27,481 nucleotides of DNA from a virus (lineage: Duplodnaviria; Heunggongvirae; Uroviricota; Caudoviricetes): IMG/VR virus record IMGVR_UViG_3300028965_000054, positions 1 through 27,481 of that record; one strand, written 5' to 3'. Shown here piece by piece: positions 4,424 to 14,777 of the stretch (its first letter is position 1; each line of letters begins with the position of its first letter). The notes under the pieces are model-generated. The model did no database searches. It saw only the letters and a program-made list of their open reading frames with translations, and was not told the origin of the DNA. A program made the translations under genes and the position numbers.

Positions 4424-4623
4424 ACGAAAGGACCTGGTTTCGCGCATACATGTGGGCGCTGGTATGCGCCCTCTTTTCTCTCATTCTGTATGCAGGACTA
4501 CTCCCCCGAATGATTTCATCAGACAGCTCCTTCCTGGTATTGCTGGGCATTTTCATTGCCATGCTGTACCCGGCAGGCGTTGTTCGCCTTTTCAGTAAGT
4601 ACATCAAGGAAATCAAACAATGA
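4420..4623 (+). CDS. Small integral membrane protein (two predicted TM helices)
   Basis: 67 aa; two hydrophobic stretches (WALVCALFSLILYAGLL and FLVLLGIFIAMLYPAGVV). Start and stop both overlap neighbours. Confidence 0.6.
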   Translation: MNERTWFRAYMWALVCALFSLILYAGLLPRMISSDSSFLVLLGIFIAMLYPAGVVRLFSKYIKEIKQ

Positions 4624-5450
4624 AGAAATTCAAACTCTTTCAGATTATCCCGCTTTTTGCCGCCATCCTGCTGGTTGGTTGCGATCGCGTTGAACCAGGT
4701 AATGTGGGCATCAAAGTCAACAAACTGGGCGACGATAAAGGCGTCGGTGAAGTGGTTGGCGTTGGCCGCTACTGGACAGGCTGGAATACCGAGGTTTACA
4801 TCTTCCCGACCTTCAAACAAATGAAGACCTACGATGAGCCGTTCAGCTTTCAGATGAGTGACGGCACAACCATCGGCTATCACATCGGTGTGGCCTACAA
4901 GGTTGATCCATCCAAAGTTACCACAGTGTTTCAGACCTACCGCAAAGGCGTGGATGACATTACCGACACTGACCTGCGCCAGAAGATCGCCGATGCACTC
5001 AACCGACTGGCCAGCAAAATGACCACCGATAAGTTTATCGACGGTGGTAAGTCTGAACTGCTGGATTCAGCACTTAAAGATATTCAAGAAGAGATGACCC
5101 CCATCGGCATTCAGGTCATGAGCCTCTCTTATGTCGGTAAACCGGAATATCCGCCAACCGTTATCGACAGCATTAACGCCAAAGTCACGGCAAACCAGAA
5201 AACCCTGCAACGCGAACAGGAAGTCAAGCAACGCGAAGCAGAAGCCAACATGCTGCGCGCAGAAGCTGCCGGACAGGCTGATGCCATTCGCACAAAAGCC
5301 CAGGCTGAAGCCGACGCCATTCGTTTACGCGGTGAAGCTCTGCGCCAGAATCCCGGCGTTATGGAGCTGGAAGCAATCAACAAATGGAACGGCACGCTAC
5401 CGCAATACATGACCAGCAATACCGCTGTTCCGTTTGTTCCGGTGAAGTAA
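4620..5450 (+). CDS. SPFH/band-7 (prohibitin/HflC-like) domain lipoprotein
   Basis: 276 aa; signal peptide with lipobox LVGC (Cys21). Central region followed by Ala/Glu/Arg-rich coiled-coil (QREQEVKQREAEANMLRAEAAGQADAIRTKAQAEADAIRLRGEALRQ) is typical of SPFH architecture. Last gene of coupled operon. Confidence 0.7.
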   Translation: MKKFKLFQIIPLFAAILLVGCDRVEPGNVGIKVNKLGDDKGVGEVVGVGRYWTGWNTEVYIFPTFKQMKTYDEPFSFQMSDGTTIGYHIGVAYKVDPSKVTTVFQTYRKGVDDITDTDLRQKIADALNRLASKMTTDKFIDGGKSELLDSALKDIQEEMTPIGIQVMSLSYVGKPEYPPTVIDSINAKVTANQKTLQREQEVKQREAEANMLRAEAAGQADAIRTKAQAEADAIRLRGEALRQNPGVMELEAINKWNGTLPQYMTSNTAVPFVPVK

Positions 5451-5501: not shown

Positions 5502-5618
5502 AGCATGCCGTTCTCACAAAAAAACCGCTTGCCATGCCGCAATCAGTCAGGTTACATTTCCGCTGCACCTCATAAAACGGGTGCCGGGTTTCGCAGCCTG
5601 CTGACTAGCAAAGCGCAC

Positions 5619-5639
5619 AACCGCGCCAGCGGTTTTTTT
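5619..5639 (+). terminator. Candidate rho-independent terminator inside the non-coding gap
   Basis: AACCGC-GCCA-GCGGTT stem-loop directly followed by TTTTTTT. Confidence 0.4.
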
Positions 5640-5818
5640 GTGCGTACTGTATTGCCACGTCTTTTTCGCACACGAATTATGGCGGGGCGTACGGGGCCGA
5701 CTTCGGTCGGGCCGGGTTCTTTGCTAGCCGGTACTGCGAACCTCGTACGTCTCGCCACCCACAGTTTCGCAGCTCTGGATGGTGAGTTTTCAAAACTTAC
5801 TAGCAAAGAGGCCACACC

Positions 5819-6049
5819 ATGGCAAACCGCAAACAGCACCGCGCTATCGCGGAGCGTCGTCACATCCAGACTGAAATCGATCGCAGACTCACCCGCGCTG
5901 CACACATCGCCTTTATCATGCAATCCAACACATTGCACAGACTCAACAGCACTATTTCAGCCGACTACTGCGCCGCTGTATTCAGCTATCTGGCGGAAGA
6001 CCTCCTGTCTCTTCAGGATCTCATCCAGCAGCAAAACAAACTCCATTAA
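5819..6049 (+). CDS. Hypothetical small protein upstream of replication genes
   Basis: 76 aa; AAAGAGG RBS 7 nt before ATG. Confidence 0.55.
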   Translation: MANRKQHRAIAERRHIQTEIDRRLTRAAHIAFIMQSNTLHRLNSTISADYCAAVFSYLAEDLLSLQDLIQQQNKLH

Positions 6050-6121: not shown

Positions 6122-6511
6122 ATGATTGACCGTCACGACTTCGTAAAATGGGTGCGCACACAGGACACCCGTCTGGCCCCAAAACTTCAGGCAATGTTTG
6201 ATTTTTATCTCCGTGCCCGCGCCAGCCGGGCACGCACCACAAAACCGGAGAACGCAGACACCCTTTATTTCACCGTGGACGACTGTTACCGCGTAGCTTT
6301 CACGCCACAAGGTCTGGCCCTGTACACCCTGACACCACACGGCGACTCCCTGCTGGCGTATTACAACTCCCCGGCCTCCGTATTTGCGGCAATGCTGGCG
6401 CATCGTACCGCTGGCGGGTGTGCCTCGCTGAGTGAATACACCACTGAATTTAACCGCCTTTCCGTCATCTTCTCGCAGGAGTGGCAGCGCGTGACGGGAT
6501 ACCAGCCATGA
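6122..6511 (+). CDS. Hypothetical protein, translationally coupled to gpA-like gene
   Basis: 129 aa; stop overlaps the gpA ATG (ATGA at 6508-6511). Confidence 0.6.
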   Translation: MIDRHDFVKWVRTQDTRLAPKLQAMFDFYLRARASRARTTKPENADTLYFTVDDCYRVAFTPQGLALYTLTPHGDSLLAYYNSPASVFAAMLAHRTAGGCASLSEYTTEFNRLSVIFSQEWQRVTGYQP

Positions 6512-9348
6512 GTGAGTTTGCATGGAGCTGGAATGAACCGCAGCCAGCTATTGATCCGGACGACTTCGCGAACTTCAGCCAGTTGCCAAAAACCGGACTG
6601 CAACGCGCCATTCGTTACTACTATGAGGCGGACAAAAAGGCTCAGGAAGAACAGGATGCGAAGGAAGAAGCCTTTTTCGCACAATCCGCCATGGGTAAAA
6701 AACTCATGGCATCCCTTGAGGAAGCCGGGCAACGCGAAAAACTGATAAAAAACATCATCAGTAAGCGCCAGGAAATAAAGCAAGACCCGGTGGCCTGCGC
6801 CTTTGCCGAACTGAAGGCACTTCCCGTTTATCTGCGAGACCCCCTGAGCCGCCGCCTCTCTTTTTTACGTAAGAAGCAGGAATCTGACCGCCAGAAAGGA
6901 AAAAACGCCAGGCTGGCAGAACGCTATGCACAAGGAACCCTGCTCAAAATATTCAAACGTCTGAAACGCACTGACGGACGCTGGCTGACACCGTGTTATT
7001 GCTCCCTTGCCGGACGCGAACGCCTGGACGATTTGCTTTACCTGCCGCAGCTCAACAAACACCAGATACAGACGCTGGCCACCATGACGGCGGCGATGTT
7101 CAGCAGCACTTTTGAAACACTCTGCGATAACTTTGGCGCGACCGATGGCGAGCTGACCATGAAAATTGCGCTGAAGGCGTATCAGATGCTGGCCCGCATG
7201 GCGTTACATCTGCACACCATGCCGCCGCATTACGAAGCACTGAGAACGGACAAAGACCGGAAGAACGCACCGAATACGGAGCTGCTGCCGGGTGCCATCC
7301 TTCGCCTGACCTGTGCGGAATGGTGGAAACACAAACTGTGGCTTTTACGTTGCGAGTGGCGGGAAGAACAACTCCGTGCCGCCTGTCTGGTTTCCAGAAA
7401 AACATCACCCTATCTGAGCCAGGACGCGTTAAGCGAGTTTCGCGCACAGCGCGAGAAAACACGCGATTTTCTGAAAAGTTTCATGCTGGAAAATGAAGAC
7501 GGGTTCACGATTGATCTCGAGACGGTGTATTACGCGGGAGTAAGTAACCCGGTTCACCGTAAGGCAGAAATGATGGCCACCATGAAGGGACTGGAACTTC
7601 TGGCCGAAGCCCGTGGCGACAGAGCGGTGTTTCTGACTGTCACCTGCCCGTCAAAATACCACGCAACAACGGAGAACGGTCATCCGAACCCCAAATGGAA
7701 CGGGGCCACCATGCGCGACTCCAGCGATTACCTGGTTAACACGTTTTTTGCGGCGGTCCGCAAAAAACTGAACCGCGACGGTCTGCGCTGGTATGGCATC
7801 CGCACGGTGGAGCCTCACCATGACGGCACTGTGCACTGGCATATGATGGTCTTTGCACATCCGGACGAGATTGAAACCATCGTGTCCCACGTCTGCGATA
7901 TTGCCATTCAGGAAGACCGCCACGAGCTGGGCGATGACATAACTCCGCGTTTTAAGGCGGAGTACGTAGACGGCTCAAAAGGCACACCAACCAGCTACAT
8001 CGCCACCTACATCGGAAAGAACCTGGACAGCCGCGCCGTGGATGGCATCGACCCGAAAACGGGCAAGCCACGCGTTGACCACGAAACCGGAAAATCAATG
8101 GCCGAGAGCGTGGAACGCGCCATCGGCTGGGCGCGCCTTCACCGGGTCCGCCAGTTCCAGTTCTTTGGTATCCCCTCCCGTCAGGTGTGGCGTGAACTGC
8201 GCCGCCTTGCCAGCCAGATGGCACGCAACCCGGAAGGCCCGCAACGGCTGAAGGATGACGCAATGGACGCGGTACTCGCTGCCGCTGATGCCGGATGTTT
8301 TGCCACCTACATTGAGAAACAGGGTGGCGTACTTGTTCCACGCAAAGACTACCTGATTCGCACCGCCTACGACCTCGCAGATGAGCTGAACGATTACGGT
8401 GAACAGAGCGTACAGATTTACGGGATCTGGTCGCCGCTCATTGGGGAGTCTTCCCGCGTATGCACGCATCCGGATAACTGGAAGCTGGTAAGACGCAAAC
8501 CGGAAGCGGAAGACAGCGCCCGCGAAAATGGTTTTGACCTTCAGGGCGGCCCTGCCGCCCCTTGGACTCGTGGCAATAACTGTCCCCGTGTACAGGAAAC
8601 GGACAACAACGGGACAGAACAGCCGGAAGAACGGCCAGCACCGTGGCCGCAGCTCCCTGACGGCGTTGAAGTGAACGAATGGATGCGCTCACTGAAACGG
8701 CACGAACGCCGGGCGCTGATGCGTTCGCTTCGTGACAAACAGGCAAAAAACAGCAGTGATGAAATGCAGAGCTGGACACAGAGCCGCAAACAGCAGCGGC
8801 CTTTGCCTGATAACCACGAATTACTCGCTAAAGAATGGCGGGAGTCTGCTGAATCTCTCGGCCTGCATATCGGTGAACAACAGATGCAGCACCTGTTACG
8901 GGGCGGCAGTCTGTGCGTTGACGGCAGCATCATTGCACCGCAGGGATTTGAAATTGTACGCAAACCGGATACCCGCCCGGACAGCCGAATCACGCAGCTC
9001 TGGCAGCGCCTGAGCCGTAATCACGGCGTAAGCAGCACGGAGATCCGCCATAACCCGGTCGCCAGCTATCTGGCACAGCTGGGGGAATCAGACCCCGAAG
9101 CCGCCGCACGCCTGGCATCCACACTTCAGCAGGACCAGAACACCATGAAAACACCCGTTACCGTACTTTCTGACATGCTGCGCGCCATCCGCGACGCAGA
9201 GCACGAACAGAGAATCAGTGAAACAACTGAACGCGCCCGCCGCAAAGCAGACCTGCTGCGGGGTGGCCTGACCAGTGGAAACAAAAAACAGACAAAAACG
9301 GGATTCACAAATCCCGTAAATGAGCAAAAAACGCGCCGCTATATATGA
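6508..9348 (+). CDS. Rolling-circle replication initiator (P2 gpA-like HUH endonuclease)
   Basis: 946 aa from ATG 6508 (track ORF begins upstream in frame). HUH-type motif GTVHWHMMVFAHP; size and position match P2/186 A. About 185 aa longer than P2 A as I recall it. Confidence 0.85.
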   Translation: MSEFAWSWNEPQPAIDPDDFANFSQLPKTGLQRAIRYYYEADKKAQEEQDAKEEAFFAQSAMGKKLMASLEEAGQREKLIKNIISKRQEIKQDPVACAFAELKALPVYLRDPLSRRLSFLRKKQESDRQKGKNARLAERYAQGTLLKIFKRLKRTDGRWLTPCYCSLAGRERLDDLLYLPQLNKHQIQTLATMTAAMFSSTFETLCDNFGATDGELTMKIALKAYQMLARMALHLHTMPPHYEALRTDKDRKNAPNTELLPGAILRLTCAEWWKHKLWLLRCEWREEQLRAACLVSRKTSPYLSQDALSEFRAQREKTRDFLKSFMLENEDGFTIDLETVYYAGVSNPVHRKAEMMATMKGLELLAEARGDRAVFLTVTCPSKYHATTENGHPNPKWNGATMRDSSDYLVNTFFAAVRKKLNRDGLRWYGIRTVEPHHDGTVHWHMMVFAHPDEIETIVSHVCDIAIQEDRHELGDDITPRFKAEYVDGSKGTPTSYIATYIGKNLDSRAVDGIDPKTGKPRVDHETGKSMAESVERAIGWARLHRVRQFQFFGIPSRQVWRELRRLASQMARNPEGPQRLKDDAMDAVLAAADAGCFATYIEKQGGVLVPRKDYLIRTAYDLADELNDYGEQSVQIYGIWSPLIGESSRVCTHPDNWKLVRRKPEAEDSARENGFDLQGGPAAPWTRGNNCPRVQETDNNGTEQPEERPAPWPQLPDGVEVNEWMRSLKRHERRALMRSLRDKQAKNSSDEMQSWTQSRKQQRPLPDNHELLAKEWRESAESLGLHIGEQQMQHLLRGGSLCVDGSIIAPQGFEIVRKPDTRPDSRITQLWQRLSRNHGVSSTEIRHNPVASYLAQLGESDPEAAARLASTLQQDQNTMKTPVTVLSDMLRAIRDAEHEQRISETTERARRKADLLRGGLTSGNKKQTKTGFTNPVNEQKTRRYI

Positions 9349-9390
9349 AGCGCGCATAAAACAGGCAAAAACGGGATTTCAGAATCCCGT
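9298..9390. repeat. Two identical-arm 20-bp palindromes (ACGGGATT-N4-AATCCCGT) 73 bp apart; candidate parC/ParR operator
   Basis: Copy 1 at 9298..9317 (inside gpA 3' end), copy 2 at 9371..9390, each in the context CAAAAACGGGATT...AATCCCGTAAA. GCGCGC-containing inverted repeat between them around the gpA stop. Confidence 0.6.
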
Positions 9391-9424
9391 AAACGATTAA
9401 TTAATCAACATAAGGAAAAGCGAC

Positions 9425-10384
9425 ATGAAAATTTGTATCGATGACGGCTCCACCAACATCAAGCTGGCATGGACTGAGAACGGCGAACGCCGCAACGCCA
9501 TCAGCCCGAACAGCTTCAAGTCGGAATGGTCTGCGCCGTTCGGTGGCACGCAGCCCGCGAACTACATGCTTGATGGTGTGCGCTATGGTTTTGATCCGGT
9601 CAGCGATCGCTTTGTCCAGACGACCGACACGCAATACCAGTACAGCGATGTGAATGTCATTGCCATTCATCACGCGCTGGTCAAATCAGGCATCACGCCA
9701 CAGGAGGTGGATGTGGTTGTCACCCTGCCACTGAGCGAGTATTTCGACACAAACGCACAGCCGGACATGGCCAACATCAACCGCAAAAAAGCGAACGTTA
9801 TGCGCCCGGTGGAGTACCAGAACGGCGAGACATTCACTATCCGTAACGTGCGGGTTATGCCTGAATCCATTCCGGCTGGCTTTAAAGCACTGGCTGACAT
9901 GAGTCCGTTTGAATCCCTGCTGATTGTGGATTTGGGCGGAACCACGCTGGATGTGGCAAAGGTTCAGGGGCAACTGGCAGGTATCAGCCAGGTGTTTTGC
10001 GATCCACACGTAGGCGTTTCTCTGATGGCCGATGCCGTGCTGTCGGTGATGGCCACCAACGGTATGCGCACCAGTCACCACATCGCCAATACCATTATCG
10101 AACATCGCCACGATGAAGCCTGGCTGCGCCAGCACATCCACAATGACACGCATTACGCCAGCCTGATGGCAGTTATTCGTGAAAAGGAGGAAACACTGAA
10201 ACAACGCGTGATCCGCGCGCTGGCGGGTTTTTCGGGTTACGGGCGGGTGATGGTTGTAGGTGGAGGAGCGGAGATTGTGGCACCCGCTATCCGCGAAGCC
10301 TGCGGAGTTAATGCGACTTTCATCGCGGACGGGGTGCCACAATTTGCTCTGGTTAATGGGCTGTACGCAATGGACAAGGAGTAA
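9425..10384 (+). CDS. parM: ParM/StbA-like actin-type partition ATPase
   Basis: 319 aa; N-terminus MKICIDDGSTNIKLAW...ISPNSFK...YSDVNVIAIHHAL closely parallels recalled plasmid R1 ParM (MLVFIDDGSTNIKLQW...ISPNSFK...YSDVNVVAVHHAL). AAGGA RBS. Confidence 0.88.
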   Translation: MKICIDDGSTNIKLAWTENGERRNAISPNSFKSEWSAPFGGTQPANYMLDGVRYGFDPVSDRFVQTTDTQYQYSDVNVIAIHHALVKSGITPQEVDVVVTLPLSEYFDTNAQPDMANINRKKANVMRPVEYQNGETFTIRNVRVMPESIPAGFKALADMSPFESLLIVDLGGTTLDVAKVQGQLAGISQVFCDPHVGVSLMADAVLSVMATNGMRTSHHIANTIIEHRHDEAWLRQHIHNDTHYASLMAVIREKEETLKQRVIRALAGFSGYGRVMVVGGGAEIVAPAIREACGVNATFIADGVPQFALVNGLYAMDKE

Positions 10385-10388
10385 ATCA

Positions 10389-10703
10389 ATGACGACACCA
10401 ACCAGACGGATAAGTTTCTATCTGAAGCCCGCCGTCGTCAAGAGCGAACGGGAGGCGTGCAGTTACCTCGACAGCCTGCCAGCCTCCGAACGCAGCCGCG
10501 CACAACGCGCGGCTTTTCTGGCTGGACTGGCTCTTATAAAACGCACCCCCGCGTTGGCGTATTCGCTGGCAGAATGGTCAGAAGACGAAATAAGGATGCC
10601 ACCGCTACCAGTACAGCCTGAAAAACCGGCGCAACCAGCAGCAGACAGCGCCCCCCATATGCAGCAGGTGAAAAAGAATATTCAGGCGTTTTTCCCGAAG
10701 TGA
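10389..10703 (+). CDS. parR: ParR/StbB-like centromere-binding protein
   Basis: 104 aa from ATG 10389 (AAGGAG RBS inside parM 3' end). RRISFYLKPAVV...YLDSLPASERSRAQRAAFLAGLAL parallels recalled R1 ParR (RTIAFKLNPDV...TLDSIPQGERSRLNRAALTAGLAL). Confidence 0.8.
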   Translation: MTTPTRRISFYLKPAVVKSEREACSYLDSLPASERSRAQRAAFLAGLALIKRTPALAYSLAEWSEDEIRMPPLPVQPEKPAQPAADSAPHMQQVKKNIQAFFPK

Positions 10704-10717
10704 AAACAGGAGTAACT

Positions 10718-11005
10718 ATGTCCACCATTACCAAAGAATGGTTACAACGTAAAATCACAGAGTTTAAATCGTGGCGCGAAGACATCCCGTTCGGTCTTGA
10801 TGAAGACGATCACAATATGTTAATCGCACTGGAAATCGCACTTGCATCACTGGAAGCAGAGCCAGTGGCATGGATGCACGCAAATAATCCTATTGGAATA
10901 CCGGCGATAACAAGAAGTAAAGATGTTGCAGACAGCTGGCGCTCTAAGGGATGGAATGTATTGCCTCTTTATTCACTGACCCGCTCCATCAATTTATGCC
11001 ATTAA
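10718..11005 (+). CDS. Hypothetical protein (AT-rich cargo)
   Basis: 95 aa from ATG 10718 with AGGAG RBS; region visibly lower in GC than flanking phage genes. Confidence 0.55.
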   Translation: MSTITKEWLQRKITEFKSWREDIPFGLDEDDHNMLIALEIALASLEAEPVAWMHANNPIGIPAITRSKDVADSWRSKGWNVLPLYSLTRSINLCH

Positions 11006-11016
11006 TGGAAGTAATC

Positions 11017-11376
11017 ATGATGAAAGATAATTCCGGAAGCCAGCGTGCATCAGTTGCAGTTATGGTAATGATTAAATTTGTGAAACAGTACACCGGAAAG
11101 CCAATCTCGCTCCGGCAATTAAGCAAAGAAACCGTTTCACTGTCATATCTGGAGCAAATATTCAGATATTTACGGGAAAGTAGCCTGGTAAAAGCCACAC
11201 GCGGCCCGGGTGGTGGATATATCCCAACAAAAGAAAATTACAGTGTTGGTGATATTGTCCGGGCAATGAAATGTTCCGGATTATATACACAGCACGTTAT
11301 TCTGGCTGCACTGGATAATATTTCTTTAACCAGCCTGCAGGAAGACACAAATTATCAGTTGTCTGCCATTGAATAA
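11017..11376 (+). CDS. Rrf2-family HTH transcriptional regulator, short form without Fe-S cysteine triad
   Basis: 119 aa; Rrf2 signature ISLRQLSKETVSLSYLEQIFRYLRESSLVKATRGPGGGY (compare recalled IscR [29 protein letters not shown]). Only one Cys. AT-rich. Confidence 0.75.
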   Translation: MMKDNSGSQRASVAVMVMIKFVKQYTGKPISLRQLSKETVSLSYLEQIFRYLRESSLVKATRGPGGGYIPTKENYSVGDIVRAMKCSGLYTQHVILAALDNISLTSLQEDTNYQLSAIE

Positions 11377-11382
11377 GAAAAC

Positions 11383-11423
11383 CCGGAACGGGTGCGCAAA
11401 TTCTTTGTGCGCCCGTTCCGGGT
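11383..11423 (-). terminator. Strong hairpin terminating the leftward late operon (P-Q-ogr)
   Basis: Near-perfect 19-bp inverted repeat CCCGGAACGGGTGCGCAAA / TTTGTGCGCCCGTTCCGGG. On the minus strand it is followed by a U-rich tract (TTTTCTTATTC). Confidence 0.6.
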
Positions 11424-11444
11424 TGGACAAGCGAAGCGCGTCAG

Positions 11445-11702
11445 CTATCCGGCCTGCAACAACTCCAGAGCCATTTGTTTTTCTTCCGGACGCATCCGCT
11501 CAATCAACAGCTTTAACACACCATTCTCCAGCCCGCTGGGCACCAGTGTGTGCGAGTAGGTCAGATTCATCACCCAGGTATGTCCGCACTCGAGACGGGT
11601 GCAACGGTAATACACATCAGCAAACAGATCGGTTTTCCAGGCTGTTTTCTCAATCACTGCATGTGCACCGCAGCAATGACATCGCGCTTTCTGTCTGCGC
11701 AT
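11445..11702 (-). CDS. ogr: Ogr/Delta-like zinc-finger late transcription activator
   Basis: 85 aa from ATG 11702..11700 with GGGAGGTGG RBS (track ORF begins further upstream). Cys spacing C-x2-C-x22-C-x4-C matches the Ogr/Delta zinc finger. Confidence 0.75.
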   Translation of the reverse strand: MRRQKARCHCCGAHAVIEKTAWKTDLFADVYYRCTRLECGHTWVMNLTYSHTLVPSGLENGVLKLLIERMRPEEKQMALELLQAG

Positions 11703-11767
11703 TTTCCACCTCCCGGAACAGCGTTTTACTGCCACCGATTTTACCCGCTCTTTCCCCATACCGCACA

Positions 11768-12802
11768 TCACTCCATGGGTTCATCAAAATCAAGAATAAA
11801 TTTCACCTCCCCCAGTCGTCTGATATCCGGGTCGCTGTTGATCCCCTCCATAATCAGGCGGCGCATCGGGATAACCTCATCCCTGTAATATGCCTCGCGG
11901 GATTTCAGTGGGTCACCAAGCCCGGCCGTATTTGCGGGAATGATGCCGGCAAGTCCGGGTGGAAAACGGTGCGCAACGAGCTGATCCTGGGCACTGATGG
12001 TTTTTATATTCAGGAACTCATCTTTTGTGCCTGAATCCCCGATAGGGATAACCTTAACCCCTTCCTTGTCTCCGCCAGCTATGTTGATAAACATGGACTT
12101 AAAATTGCCAGCACCTTTCGAGTTTTCAATCTCTTTACGAAATTCCGCCTCAAGCTCAGGCGTCATATTGGGATCAGTGGAATACAGGATATAACCCAGA
12201 TGCGCGCCGTTTTTGTAATATTTGCGGCGAAAGCGTGTGGCATCCACATTCAGCATCGCCGACTCCATCCCGTGGATATAATCCGGGACACCGTAAACCT
12301 GCTGTTGCGGGTCATAAATGGCCAAGAACACCACTTCGCCTGGCGGGTAAACGAGATCTTCCAGTGCCGCCTGCACAATCACCGTGCCCCCCTCGTTGTT
12401 ACGCCGCAGGTACAGCGACGGCAGTGTATGCAGGCGCACCACCCGACCGAAGCCATTGCGCACTTTAAGCAGCCCCATATCCCCGAATATCAGCAGATTG
12501 GTCACCGCTGCCGCCATGGCGGCGTGTGTCATACCACCACCACCCCGAAAACCCTGCATGATCATATTCACGCGCGCACGCAATACCGCGCCGTGATACG
12601 GCGCGATATTGGACAACATGGCGAGATCCATGCGCTCAATGGGCGGCGTGTACCAGCCGTTATAGCCATCCCAGAGCGAGCCGTAATAACAGCCCCATGC
12701 AGCGACCGGTTCCGGGTCACCAAATTCAATAAACGTCATTTTGCCGACTCCCTCTTTCATGACAACCTTATCTCTGACCGGGTGTTTTTTCTTTTTACTC
12801 AT
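11768..12802 (-). CDS. Q: Portal protein (P2 gpQ-like)
   Basis: 344 aa from MSKKKK. Shared blocks with recalled P2 Q: FRRKYYKNGAHLGYI vs FRRKYYENGAHAGYI, NFKSMF vs NFKNLF, IPIGDSGTKDEFLNIK vs IPLSEVATKDDFFNIK. Start overlaps terminase stop. Confidence 0.9.
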   Translation of the reverse strand: MSKKKKHPVRDKVVMKEGVGKMTFIEFGDPEPVAAWGCYYGSLWDGYNGWYTPPIERMDLAMLSNIAPYHGAVLRARVNMIMQGFRGGGGMTHAAMAAAVTNLLIFGDMGLLKVRNGFGRVVRLHTLPSLYLRRNNEGGTVIVQAALEDLVYPPGEVVFLAIYDPQQQVYGVPDYIHGMESAMLNVDATRFRRKYYKNGAHLGYILYSTDPNMTPELEAEFRKEIENSKGAGNFKSMFINIAGGDKEGVKVIPIGDSGTKDEFLNIKTISAQDQLVAHRFPPGLAGIIPANTAGLGDPLKSREAYYRDEVIPMRRLIMEGINSDPDIRRLGEVKFILDFDEPME

Positions 12803-14583
12803 GCAGGAAAGATCCATGTTGATTTGCGCTTGTGCTTATAGTTCAGGGGTTCGTTACTTGCTGCATGGGCGATGGCAAAGAAGATGTCAGCGTGCCCGGT
12901 TTCTTCGCTACGTTCAGCGGTAAAAGTAACTTTATTGCCACTGTTGGTGGATTCCTGACGGATGGCCAGAAATGATGCCGGAATATCTGTGGCTTCCTCA
13001 TCCCACTCAATACGGTTGGCGTAAATCAGATCCAGCATCTTCATCACCAGGCGGTTTTTGGATTCAACACTGTAATGAATGGCCACTGTTTCACGGCGGG
13101 CAAATCCCTGAACCAGCTCAAAGACACCATAGCCAAGCCCGGTAACATCAATGCCGATAAACGTCATGTTATAGCGCGCCTTAATGCTGCGGATACGCTC
13201 TGCCATAAACTGGAATGACATACTCCGCCAGTGGTGTTTTTCCAGCACGCGGAATCGTTCTGCCGCAACCAGCGGTGGTGCCAGCACCACAAACGTGGCG
13301 TTATCGCCGGAGCGCGCAGGGTCAAAGCCGCCCCACACTTCACGGTTTCCAAATGGCATGGCATCTTCCGGGTGAAAATCCTCCCACGTACTGATATCAA
13401 CGCCACAGCGCACGAGGTCATCGAATTTAAAGACGCTCTCTTTGTCATCCACAAACACGCACATAAACAGCATATTGAAGGCTGTTTCGTTGTACCGCTC
13501 GCGCAGTTCGTTGATGTCAGCAAGGTTAAAGCCGCCGGCAATGGCATCTTCCATTGTCACCACATAGCGCCACTGGCCATCCGGGCATTCGCGCCCGCCA
13601 TCGCGCAGCTCATCAAAGGACGGAAACTCAACCCCTTTTCGTTTCGGATCGCCTTTGCGCCATTCATCGCCAGACCAGAACGGATAGCCCTGATGGGTTT
13701 TGGTTGACGGCGTGGAGAAGTAGGTAATGCGCCAGTGCGAGTGGGTGGCCATACCGGACGCCACTTCATTGAGGCGACGAAAGCCGGGGATCCACAGATA
13801 TTCGTCAATGTACAGGTGGCCGCTGTTTGACTGCGCCGTGTTACTGTTGGTCGCCAGAAAATACAGTTCAGCCAGATTACTTAACTTAACCGGGTTGCCT
13901 TTAATGGGAATGCCAAATTCCGTCTGTGCAATCTTAACGATATAGGTGCGGAACACTTCGGCCTGACGTTTTGATGCCGATAAAAATATCTGTGTGTCGC
14001 CGGTTAATACCGCATCTTCGAACGCCTCAAACGCGAAGTAATACGTCGCCCCAATCTGGCGCGATTTAAGCAGGTTGCGTACACGACGGAATTTGTTTTC
14101 ACGCAGATGCAACTGATAAGCGAACAGTTTTTTGGTAAACGGCTCAAAACTCTCTGCTGTCAGCCCTGACACATCATTAGCTTTACGACGACGCTCTTTC
14201 TTATCCGCGTCTTTTTCTCCGCGCTCTTCTTTTCCATAACGGCCAGACCGGGGAATATCAGCCCCCATTCGTTCTATCTCGGCCATTCGTTCTGTGTGCT
14301 TGTTCCTGACCGACATCAGTTTGACGTGGTGGCCAATCAGGCGATCGAGTTCATCGTGCTCTTCCTGGGTTTTATGGTCACGCTCCGCCAGTACAGCGAG
14401 ACGCCGGGCGATGACATCCTCCACGCCCTCAGTATTAAGCTGTGTGTACCACTCAAACTTTGTCGCCCAGTAATAAACAATTCGCGGGCTGTTCAGTCCG
14501 AGCTTCTTTTGTATTTCTTTTGGGGTGTGCCTTTTCAGATAGAGTGATTTTGCTGCAGCAATCACTTCATCAGAGTACGCCAT
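12799..14583 (-). CDS. P: Terminase large (ATPase) subunit (P2 gpP-like)
   Basis: 594 aa; size and position (leftward, upstream of Q, divergent from O) match P2 P. Confidence 0.85.
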   Translation of the reverse strand: MAYSDEVIAAAKSLYLKRHTPKEIQKKLGLNSPRIVYYWATKFEWYTQLNTEGVEDVIARRLAVLAERDHKTQEEHDELDRLIGHHVKLMSVRNKHTERMAEIERMGADIPRSGRYGKEERGEKDADKKERRRKANDVSGLTAESFEPFTKKLFAYQLHLRENKFRRVRNLLKSRQIGATYYFAFEAFEDAVLTGDTQIFLSASKRQAEVFRTYIVKIAQTEFGIPIKGNPVKLSNLAELYFLATNSNTAQSNSGHLYIDEYLWIPGFRRLNEVASGMATHSHWRITYFSTPSTKTHQGYPFWSGDEWRKGDPKRKGVEFPSFDELRDGGRECPDGQWRYVVTMEDAIAGGFNLADINELRERYNETAFNMLFMCVFVDDKESVFKFDDLVRCGVDISTWEDFHPEDAMPFGNREVWGGFDPARSGDNATFVVLAPPLVAAERFRVLEKHHWRSMSFQFMAERIRSIKARYNMTFIGIDVTGLGYGVFELVQGFARRETVAIHYSVESKNRLVMKMLDLIYANRIEWDEEATDIPASFLAIRQESTNSGNKVTFTAERSEETGHADIFFAIAHAASNEPLNYKHKRKSTWIFPA

Positions 14584-14667
14584 AAATAATCAATCTCTGC
14601 TGATGCCATTTTAATTTATGCATTTTCAGTAAAGGCCTTTTTAAAAACGAATATCGCGTTTCGGTAT

Positions 14668-14695
14668 TTTTCGGATATATGCGTATATCCGAAAA
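14668..14695. promoter_or_regulatory. 12-N4-12 palindrome in the divergent P/O late promoter region
   Basis: TTTTCGGATATA-TGCG-TATATCCGAAAA centred in the 194-bp gap between divergently transcribed terminase and scaffold genes. Related half-site CGAATAT / TTTCGGTAT just upstream. Confidence 0.5.
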
Positions 14696-14777
14696 CACCG
14701 GAAATTAATCAGGTGACGGTTTTTTTATTTCCCACTTAAATAACGCTCAGTTAATTTTTATCAGCGGGTTAATTCAG

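What the first reader, a model, noticed from the sequence alone, without database searches (positions are those of the whole stretch)
10718..11376. AT-rich two-gene cargo: 95-aa unknown plus a short Rrf2-family regulator lacking Fe-S cysteines
This stretch is visibly lower in GC than the flanking phage genes, suggesting separate acquisition. The Rrf2 protein has the family signature (SLSYLEQ...RGPGGGY) but a single Cys, so it is not an IscR/NsrR-type cluster sensor. It lies in the P2 cargo slot between A and the late operon and may regulate host or phage genes in the lysogen.
Basis: partly seen in the sequence, partly recalled or inferred. Interest (0 to 1): 0.45.

Follow-up and report, generated by a model that had tools for sequence, protein, structure and literature searches.

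The report
Sensor-less IscR-like regulator as prophage cargo
A P2-like E. coli prophage carries, in its known variable cargo slot, a low-GC two-gene insert whose second gene is a cut-down copy of the iron-sulfur regulator IscR that keeps the DNA-reading parts but has lost the sensor; it is real, already annotated, and of modest interest.

Summary
Window 10718-11376 has 42.6% GC against 52.7% for the window, and GC3 of 0.39-0.43 against 0.56-0.65 in the flanking genes. It holds two coupled genes. ORF95 is the N-terminal module of lambdoid Ea22/EaA/DUF551-type proteins. The second gene encodes a 119-aa Rrf2-family protein.

A sister prophage with different cargo sets the cassette limits at 10697-11377, between the parR stop codon and the ogr terminator hairpin. 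This is the published gpA-gpQ hotspot of P2-like phages. The exact arrangement is already listed in Table S5 of Rousset 2022, and RefSeq already names the protein.

The Rrf2 protein is closest to E. coli IscR. Its recognition helix (SLSYLEQ) and wing (RGPGGGY) are identical to IscR's. About 25 residues are missing, which removes all four cluster ligands and half of the dimerisation helix. It belongs to a family of short, cysteine-poor relatives in temperate enterobacterial phages and is under purifying selection. ORF95 is not.

Most likely it is a signal-blind IscR-like DNA-binding regulator. Its targets and the timing of its expression are unknown. No IscR-type operator, own promoter or defence-system match was found.

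Verdict: new member of a known kind, interest 0.3.

The parts
10697..11377 (.). Limits of the ORF95-Rrf2 cargo cassette.
   Evidence: In locus L103 (same A-parMR and ogr-Q lineage, different cargo) homology to the window stops at 10696 and resumes at 11378. GC is 42.6%.
10718..11005 (+). ORF95, a 95-aa protein. It is the N-terminal module of lambdoid Ea22/EaA/DUF551-type 'ea' proteins and lacks the DUF551 domain.
   Evidence: phrog_660 at 3e-18 and phrog_60 at 9e-17, with no Pfam hit. tblastn matches Ea22, EaA and DUF551 genes of lambdoid phages. Alignment A4 shows homology to residues 1-85 of DUF551 proteins followed by a short unrelated tail. pN/pS is 0.73 against the Salmonella copy. The AF2 model has pLDDT 80.5 and no fold match in the PDB.
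11017..11376 (+). Short Rrf2/IscR-like winged-helix protein of 119 aa. It lacks the Fe-S ligand loop and half of the dimerisation helix.
   Evidence: Pfam PF02082 at 50.8 bits. The best solved relative is E. coli IscR, with an identical recognition helix and wing. About 25 aa are deleted relative to IscR. The AF2 model has pLDDT 89.7, and the top fold match is apo-IscR 4HF0 at TM 0.72. pN/pS is 0.07. RefSeq WP_000974052.1 is annotated 'RrF2 family transcriptional regulator'.
11380..11424 (.). Hairpin with 21-nt arms at the right edge of the cassette. It is a canonical intrinsic terminator for ogr on the minus strand and a strong hairpin without a U-tract for the rrf2 transcript. It belongs to the backbone, not the cargo.
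   Evidence: The arms are 90% complementary. Folding energy is -39.7 kcal/mol (z -7.9) on the + strand and -32.2 (z -7.4) on the - strand, and the terminator scan flags the - strand only. The hairpin is kept in prophages that lack Rrf2.
10389..10703 (+). parR (Plasmid_stab_B). This is the left flank and is not cargo. Only 14 nt separate its stop codon from the ORF95 start, so co-transcription is implied.
   Evidence: Pfam PF10784 at 85.7 bits. GC is 56.5%. Many related prophages lose homology to the window inside the 3' third of parR.
11445..11702 (-). ogr/Delta-type late activator gene, convergent with rrf2. This is the right flank and is not cargo.
   Evidence: Pfam PF04606 at 48 bits. It is annotated in L001.

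Best explanation
Window 10697-11377 is an accessory cassette in the gpA-gpQ variable hotspot of a P2-like E. coli prophage. It was probably imported from the exo-xis or early-left accessory region of a lambdoid phage.

Its working gene encodes a minimal Rrf2/IscR-type winged-helix protein. The protein keeps IscR's base-reading residues (the equivalents of Ser40, Glu43 and Gln44) and its wing (Arg59-Gly-Pro-Gly-Gly-Gly-Tyr). It has lost the [2Fe-2S] ligand loop and the first half of the dimerisation helix.

It therefore most likely acts as a cofactor-independent, signal-blind DNA-binding regulator that reads IscR-like (type-2-like, CC-containing) half-sites. Because no such site is present on the prophage, its targets are more likely host promoters than phage promoters.

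It is read as the last gene of the A-parM-parR transcription unit. ORF95 is a separate, weakly constrained Ea22/DUF551-N-type module and not an obligate partner.

Shown: the cargo status and limits, family, fold, retained and missing residues, purifying selection, and the existence of a phage-borne subfamily. Inferred: DNA binding, site specificity, host targets and timing of expression.
For: Cargo status:
- GC and GC3 drop across the region.
- The backbone is present in about 1373 genomes and the Rrf2 gene in 37.
- Alternative cargo sits between the same breakpoints.
- The slot is the published hotspot and this arrangement is listed in its Table S5.

Family and fold:
- Pfam Rrf2 scores above its cut-off.
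- IscR is the best NCBIfam and PDB match.
- The model has pLDDT 89.7, and the 36 best PDB fold matches are all Rrf2 proteins, led by apo-IscR.

DNA-reading residues:
- SLSYLEQ.F and RGPGGGY are identical to IscR.
- They are invariant or nearly so across 21 short relatives.
- Ser40, Glu43 and Gln44 are IscR's base contacts (PMC5411485).
- IscR whose cluster-ligand cysteines are changed to alanine still binds type 2 sites (PMC4055776).

Sensor loss:
- The deletion covers IscR Cys92-Arg116.
- Relatives have 0-1 Cys.

Selection:
- rrf2 has 8 synonymous against 2 non-synonymous changes relative to the Salmonella copy (pN/pS 0.07). ORF95 has 3 against 8.

Lambdoid origin:
- Relatives lie next to exo/int or xis/int, or in the replication region of lambdoid phages.
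- ORF95 matches Ea22, EaA and DUF551 genes.
Against: - No IscR type 1 or type 2 motif occurs above chance in the window or near eight related genes. There is therefore no cis evidence for the proposed specificity.
- The dimerisation helix is cut to about 7 residues in the model. Dimer geometry, and with it site spacing, may differ from IscR, or the protein may not dimerise.
- The N-terminal arm is not conserved with IscR; IscR Tyr9 aligns to Val.
- No promoter was found, so expression in the lysogen is unproven.
- Scores are far below the IscR equivalog cut-off and below the NCBIfam Rrf2 superfamily cut-off.
- No experiment on any member was found in the literature searched.
Confidence: 0.5

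Rival explanations
1. The Rrf2-like protein regulates the phage itself. Like the exo-xis region genes of lambdoid phages, it would tune the lysis-lysogeny decision or early-to-late timing through a phage operator that does not look like an IscR site.
For: Relatives sit in early-left or exo-xis-type positions next to xis/int or exo, where genes are known to influence lysogenisation and induction (PMC7093339, PMC3824215). In all P2-like loci the gene is the last one before the late activator ogr. It appears to be co-transcribed with early genes. The truncated dimerisation helix could change site spacing.
Against: The same protein (0-2 aa differences) sits in P2-like prophages, while 41-51% identical relatives sit in unrelated lambdoid phages. 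A shared phage operator is therefore unlikely. No conserved palindrome or operator was found. The only nearby palindrome (10992-11015) folds no better than shuffled sequence. Conservation of IscR's base-reading residues is unexplained under this view.
Confidence: 0.25
2. The cassette is an anti-phage (superinfection exclusion) determinant, like most characterised cargo of the gpA-gpQ hotspot.
For: The position is in the hotspot where old, tin and several tested systems protect against other phages (PMC9122126). Neighbouring variants of the slot carry defence-like genes such as an AAA ATPase plus S8 peptidase. In one relative a GhoT/OrtT-type toxin gene lies directly upstream.
Against: No PADLOC model matches either protein. 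Neither protein has an enzymatic or effector domain. The upstream partner is not conserved. No promoter for expression in the lysogen was detected. No sign was found that this arrangement was among the systems cloned in the hotspot paper.
Confidence: 0.15
3. ORF95 and Rrf2 form an obligate two-gene system, for example a toxin-antitoxin-like or sensor-effector pair.
For: The genes are tightly coupled; the ORF95 stop overlaps an in-frame ATG of rrf2 and there are 11 nt to the annotated start. An ORF95-like gene directly precedes rrf2 in all P2-like loci examined from E. coli, Salmonella and Escherichia sp..
Against: Outside the P2-like lineage the upstream gene is unrelated: a 71-aa, 64-aa or 242-aa unknown, or GhoT/OrtT. 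ORF95 shows relaxed constraint and module swapping. It looks like the N-terminal remnant of a DUF551-type gene.
Confidence: 0.05
4. The cassette is a functionless hitchhiker, a decaying fragment of lambdoid DNA.
For: ORF95 looks truncated and weakly constrained. There is no promoter of its own.
Against: rrf2 is intact in all 37 E. coli genomes at 99.3% identity or more. It has 0-2 aa changes across three species, with a pN/pS of 0.07 against the Salmonella copy. A family of full-length short relatives exists in at least 213 viral contigs. The model is confidently folded.
Confidence: 0.05

Closest known systems
E. coli IscR (Rrf2 family; PDB 4HF0, 4HF1, 4CHU)
   Same: Same winged-helix fold (TM 0.72). 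The recognition helix SLSYLEQ.F and the wing RGPGGGY are identical, including the base contacts Ser40, Glu43 and Gln44. In having no cluster it resembles apo-locked IscR, which still binds type 2 sites.
   Different: 119 aa against 162 aa. About 25 residues are missing, covering Cys92, Cys98, Cys104 and His107 and the first half of the dimerisation helix. The N-terminal arm differs. The score is 59 bits against an equivalog cut-off of 207. The gene is on a prophage, not at the head of the isc operon, and there is no IscR-type operator nearby.
Cluster-less Rrf2 regulators such as CymR (PDB 2Y75, 3T8R)
   Same: These are Rrf2 fold proteins that bind DNA without an Fe-S cluster. They are among the top sequence and fold matches.
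   Different: CymR keeps the full-length dimerisation helix and works with a partner enzyme (CysK; my own knowledge, not tested here). Its recognition helix and wing differ from those of IscR.
Cargo of the gpA-gpQ hotspot of P2-like phages (old, tin and others; Rousset et al. 2022, PMC9122126)
   Same: Same locus, same low-GC mosaic character, and replaceable by other cargo. This exact arrangement is listed in that paper's Table S5.
   Different: There is no known defence domain and no PADLOC match. The content is a regulator plus an ea-type module rather than a nuclease, ATPase or abortive-infection system.
Exo-xis / 'ea' region genes of lambdoid phages (Ea22, EaA, DUF551 proteins)
   Same: ORF95 shares its first ~85 residues with these proteins. 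Short Rrf2 relatives lie in the corresponding early-left regions of lambdoid phages.
   Different: ORF95 lacks the Ead_Ea22 and DUF551 Pfam domains. Here the genes sit in a P2-like phage downstream of a parMR partition module.

Membership tests
Rrf2 family (Pfam PF02082) | N-terminal winged helix-turn-helix that matches the family profile above the curated cut-off | tested here: met
   50.8 bits against a cut-off of 30; residues 12-92 match profile positions 2-85 of 132.
Rrf2 family (Pfam PF02082) | Rrf2 three-dimensional fold | tested here: met
   The AF2 model has pLDDT 89.7. The 36 best PDB matches are all Rrf2 proteins, and the best is apo-IscR 4HF0 at TM 0.72.
Rrf2 family (Pfam PF02082) | Long C-terminal dimerisation helix | tested here: not met
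   Profile positions 86-132 are unmatched. The alignment shows the first half of the helix deleted. The model has only short helices at 88-91, 93-99 and 104-114. Oligomeric state could not be predicted.
Rrf2 superfamily (NCBIfam TIGR00738) | Score above the curated superfamily cut-off | tested here: not met
   53.4 bits against a cut-off of 73.3.
IscR (NCBIfam TIGR02010 / NF008110 equivalogs) | Score above the equivalog cut-off | tested here: not met
   59.2 against 207.55, and 46.2 against 275.
IscR (NCBIfam TIGR02010 / NF008110 equivalogs) | Three Cys plus one His that hold the [2Fe-2S] cluster | tested here: not met
   The whole ligand segment is deleted. The single Cys86 aligns elsewhere and is not conserved.
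IscR (NCBIfam TIGR02010 / NF008110 equivalogs) | Base-contacting residues Ser40, Glu43 and Gln44 and the Arg59 wing | tested here: met
   These residues are identical in the pairwise alignment to 4HF0. They are invariant or nearly invariant in the short subfamily.
IscR (NCBIfam TIGR02010 / NF008110 equivalogs) | Binding to type 1 or type 2 IscR operators | not testable with these tools
   Only motif scans were possible. No site above chance was found in the window or in eight related loci.
gpA-gpQ hotspot cargo of P2-like phages | Lies between the replication gene A and the portal gene Q | tested here: met
   A is at 6481-9348 and Q at 11768-12817 on the minus strand. The hotspot is defined in PMC9122126.
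gpA-gpQ hotspot cargo of P2-like phages | Variable between otherwise related prophages | tested here: met
   The backbone is in about 1373 genomes and rrf2 in 37. Other cargo occupies the slot in L002-L005 and L103.
gpA-gpQ hotspot cargo of P2-like phages | Anti-phage activity | not testable with these tools
   No PADLOC match. Plaque assays are needed.
Ead/Ea22 (PF13935) or DUF551 (PF04448) proteins, for ORF95 | Presence of the named Pfam domain | tested here: not met
   No Pfam hit at E up to 1. Only the shared N-terminal ~85 residues are present.
Toxin-antitoxin pair | Conserved partnership of the two genes and a recognisable toxin | tested here: not met
   The upstream partner differs among relatives. 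Neither protein has a toxin domain.

The most novel reading that the evidence does not exclude
Temperate enterobacterial phages carry a dedicated family of sensor-less 'IscR mimics'. By keeping IscR's DNA-reading surface but not its Fe-S cluster, these proteins would occupy host IscR type 2 sites whatever the iron-sulfur status of the cell. They would thereby rewire Fe-S biogenesis (suf), anaerobic respiration, and IscR-dependent surface or virulence genes during infection or lysogeny. That would be a new type of phage host-takeover or lysogenic-conversion factor.
Probability: 0.2. Interest if true: 0.6.

Novelty: new member of a known kind. Interest (0 to 1): 0.3.

Why it matters
If the protein really reads IscR sites without sensing Fe-S status, a prophage present in under 1% of E. 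coli, including STEC and ETEC isolates from livestock, could uncouple part of a global stress and virulence regulon from its signal. The related family in Klebsiella and Citrobacter phages would make this a general phage strategy. If not, the region is one more uncharacterised regulator among the 1,650 arrangements already catalogued at this hotspot. The practical value now is a clean definition of the cassette limits and of a short phage-borne Rrf2 subfamily that can be tested with simple binding assays.

Tried and rejected
- **Defence models.** PADLOC gave no hit for ORF95, Rrf2, ParR or ParM.
- **IscR operators.** Type 2 scans (core and full motif) and a type 1 scan of the window found nothing above chance. 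A stricter type 2 scan of the window and eight related loci gave zero sites.
- **Own promoter.** The only consensus match lies inside ORF95, and it is one match against 2.2 expected. None was found upstream of parM.
- **Palindrome at 10992-11015**, across the ORF95 stop and rrf2 start. As RNA it folds no better than shuffles (z -1.2). It is not IscR-like in spacing. I left it unexplained.
- **ORF95 function.** No Pfam or NCBIfam hit, no PDB sequence match, and no fold match with E below 0.85.
- **Profile search with the short-family alignment in the word-indexed database.** It was swamped by ordinary IscR and yielded only four short members.
- **Two-gene system or toxin-antitoxin idea.** Rejected because the partner is not conserved.
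- **Plasmid origin together with parMR.** Rejected. GC differs from that of parMR, and only four Klebsiella plasmid records hold a relative.
- **Known RNA families.** None lies in or next to the cassette.
- **Literature.** I found no paper on phage-encoded Rrf2 or IscR-like proteins.
- **Dimer prediction.** It could not be run, because the structure tool models single chains only.

Full report
**What is there**

The window is a P2-like prophage of E. coli integrated next to pdxB. It is close to a prophage in NZ_LR778147, whose cargo stretch (window 10650-11450) is 100% identical. The gene order around the finding is:

- replication gene A (6481-9348)
- parM (9425-10384)
- parR (10389-10703)
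- ORF95 (10718-11005)
- a 119-aa Rrf2-family gene (11017-11376)
- a strong hairpin (11380-11424)
- then, on the other strand, ogr (11445-11702), portal Q and terminase P

ORF95 has an AGGAG ribosome-binding site, and its start is 14 nt after the parR stop. The Rrf2 gene has a GGAAG site, and an alternative in-frame ATG overlaps the ORF95 stop.

**Check of the observation**

- GC of 10718-11376 is 42.6% against 52.7% for the window. That is in the lowest 0.9% of same-size windows.
- Third-position GC is 0.43 and 0.39 for the two genes, against 0.56-0.65 for A, parM, parR, ogr, Q and P.
- The Rrf2 assignment passes Pfam's cut-off (50.8 against 30 bits), but only over the winged-helix part of the profile, positions 2-85 of 132.
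- The protein has one cysteine.

**Is it cargo?**

Yes. About 1373 of 5426 complete E. coli genomes carry a related A-parM-parR segment. In most of the records sampled, homology to the window stops near window 10541-10586, in the 3' third of parR. Different genes follow:

- hypothetical proteins and a DUF4760 protein in EC958
- an XF1762-family gene in ECA64
- an IS3 remnant in EDL933
- an AAA ATPase plus S8 peptidase in E2348/69

The Rrf2 gene itself is in 37 genomes, always at 99.3% identity or more.

The narrower ogr-Q late-gene lineage is in 42 records. Five of these, from three strains, keep the hairpin but have other DNA in place of ORF95-Rrf2. In one of them (L103) homology to the window ends at 10696 and resumes at 11378.

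The slot is the gpA-gpQ hotspot described by Rousset et al. 2022. Their Table S5 already lists this arrangement with the same protein accessions, WP_000104418 and WP_000974052. RefSeq names the protein 'RrF2 family transcriptional regulator'.

**The Rrf2-like protein**

Its best matches in NCBIfam and among solved structures are IscR. Against E. coli IscR the recognition helix (SLSYLEQ.F) and the wing (RGPGGGY) are identical. Ser40, Glu43 and Gln44 of that helix are IscR's base contacts at type 2 sites (PMC5411485).

An alignment with IscR-like proteins shows that about 25 residues are absent. These correspond to IscR Cys92 to about Arg116, that is, all three cysteine ligands, His107 and the first half of the dimerisation helix. 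His107 as the fourth ligand is from my own knowledge; PMC4055776 states three cysteines and a histidine.

The AlphaFold model is confident (pLDDT 89.7). It shows the winged helix followed by three short helices instead of one long one. The 36 best PDB fold matches are all Rrf2 proteins, led by apo-IscR at TM 0.72.

**A phage-borne subfamily**

- An exhaustive profile search found about twenty 50%-identity clusters of 95-123-aa proteins that match the query over its full length.
- In their alignment the IscR-like positions S41, S43, Y44, E46 and G63-Y68 are invariant, and Q47 and R62 nearly so. A C-terminal motif V(L/I)xAL(D/E)xVx(I/L) is conserved. The query's cysteine is not conserved.
- IMG/VR holds at least 213 viral contigs with such relatives. 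The 19 distinct proteins among the best 80 have 104-123 residues and 0-1 cysteine.
- Where context is known, the gene lies in early-left or exo-xis-type regions of lambdoid phages. In Citrobacter phage Chris1 it is next to exo and int. In Klebsiella phage Kp4865-4 it is next to xis and int. In one metagenomic contig it is in a replication region.
- PHROGs has the family as phrog_24072, function unknown.

**ORF95**

It matches phrog_660 and phrog_60 and, by tblastn, Ea22, EaA and DUF551 genes of lambdoid phages. Aligned with DUF551 proteins it covers their first ~85 residues and then ends in a short unrelated tail without the DUF551 domain. It has no Pfam, NCBIfam, PDB sequence or PDB fold match.

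In P2-like loci from E. coli, Salmonella and Escherichia sp., an ORF95-like gene always precedes rrf2. Its N-terminal module is swapped in some, and extra ea-type genes are added in others. Outside that lineage the gene upstream of rrf2 is unrelated.

Against the Salmonella copy, rrf2 has 8 synonymous and 2 non-synonymous changes (pN/pS 0.07), while ORF95 has 3 and 8 (0.73). The counts are small, but they point to a constrained rrf2 and a weakly constrained ORF95. The two are not an obligate pair.

**Expression**

No promoter of its own was detected. The only consensus match is inside ORF95, and the count is below chance. None was found upstream of parM either. The layout implies read-through from the A-parMR unit.

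The hairpin has a U-tract only on the minus strand, so it is the ogr terminator. For the rrf2 transcript it is a very stable hairpin (-39.7 kcal/mol) without a U-tract. Whether the gene is expressed in the lysogen cannot be decided from sequence.

**Mechanism**

The best-supported reading is a cofactor-independent, signal-blind IscR-like DNA-binding regulator that reads IscR-like half-sites. This rests on the identical recognition surface and on the fact that IscR whose cluster-ligand cysteines are changed to alanine still binds type 2 sites.

Three points weigh against it:

- No IscR type 1 or type 2 motif occurs above chance in the window or near eight related genes.
- The N-terminal arm differs from that of IscR.
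- The shortened dimerisation helix may change site spacing or prevent dimerisation.

The absence of sites on the phage favours host targets, but this is inference.

Rival explanations are a phage-internal developmental regulator, an exclusion factor (no PADLOC match), a two-gene system and a dead hitchhiker. They are weighed in the dedicated fields.

**Comparison and novelty**

The protein is a member of the Rrf2 family by profile and fold. It is not an IscR orthologue, because the equivalog score, the ligands and the genomic context all fail.

The cassette is a member of the known gpA-gpQ hotspot cargo class and is already catalogued and annotated. What appears undescribed in the literature I could search is the short, sensor-less, IscR-like subfamily in temperate phages.

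I rate it a new member of a known kind, with an interest of 0.3. If the IscR-mimic reading proved true, its interest would be 0.6; I give that reading a probability of about 0.2.

Noticed in passing
window 9425-10703: A complete actin-type partition module sits between gene A and the cargo slot of an integrating P2-like prophage. ParM matches StbA_N plus the Pfam model named ParM_N (described as the C-terminal domain), and ParR matches Plasmid_stab_B. The A-parMR segment is present in about 1373 of 5426 complete E. coli genomes, all but two places chromosomal. Why an integrated phage keeps a plasmid segregation system is not explained here.
   Followed up: partly
window 9282-9323 and 9355-9396: Two copies of a 42-nt direct repeat lie 73 nt apart. 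Each holds the palindrome ACGGGATTnnnnAATCCCGT. One is inside the 3' end of gene A and one is in the A-parM spacer. They are possibly the parC-like centromere or ParR operator. The scan also reads them as minus-strand terminator-like hairpins.
   Followed up: no
window 5565-5639 and 5675-5762 (+): Rfam matches above the gathering score to the isrK Hfq-binding sRNA (65.5 bits) and the C4 antisense RNA (82.8 bits). They lie just upstream of a small gene (5819-6049) with a weak, below-cut-off Pfam match to the Derepression protein family (22.1 against 27 bits). This resembles a P1/P7-type antisense immunity module inside the early region.
   Followed up: no
window 4620-5450 (+): An SPFH/Band_7 domain gene (108 bits) lies within the early operon. 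In the sister prophage L001 it is preceded by two gene fragments annotated as pseudogenes, which suggests a second cargo insertion point.
   Followed up: no
window 11425-11444; L103 5067-5286; L009 4728-5602: A second insertion point lies between the hairpin and ogr. Related prophages carry an extra 218 bp there, or an extra 874 bp with a 209-aa minus-strand gene.
   Followed up: partly
window 10650-11450 versus 11430-12830: Within E. coli the cargo stretch (10650-11450) is 99% identical or more in 44 of 45 genomes. The adjacent ogr-Q segment is only 90-95% identical in 39 of 42 records, and the A-to-portal stretch (8600-12400) is mostly 95-99% identical in its best match per genome. NZ_LR778147 has a 100% identical cargo stretch but a 94.4% identical ogr-Q segment. 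This suggests recent exchange of the cassette between diverged phages, or recombination in the late region.
   Followed up: partly
window 10992-11015: An imperfect palindrome, ATTTATGCCATTAATGGAAGTAAT with the perfect core CCATTAATGG, spans the ORF95 stop and the ribosome-binding site of rrf2. As RNA it is not more stable than shuffled sequence. Its role as an operator or translational-coupling element is untested.
   Followed up: partly
window 14659-14704: A palindrome with 21-nt arms (81% complementary) lies in the low-GC stretch between terminase gene P and the adjacent capsid scaffold gene, which is transcribed in the opposite direction. It is probably part of the late promoter or terminator region.
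   Followed up: no
L019 4814-5348: In a metagenomic island next to a phage-type integrase, a 58-aa GhoT/OrtT-type membrane toxin gene lies 10 nt upstream of a 115-aa short Rrf2 relative. This is the only hint of a toxin-linked context in the family.
   Followed up: no
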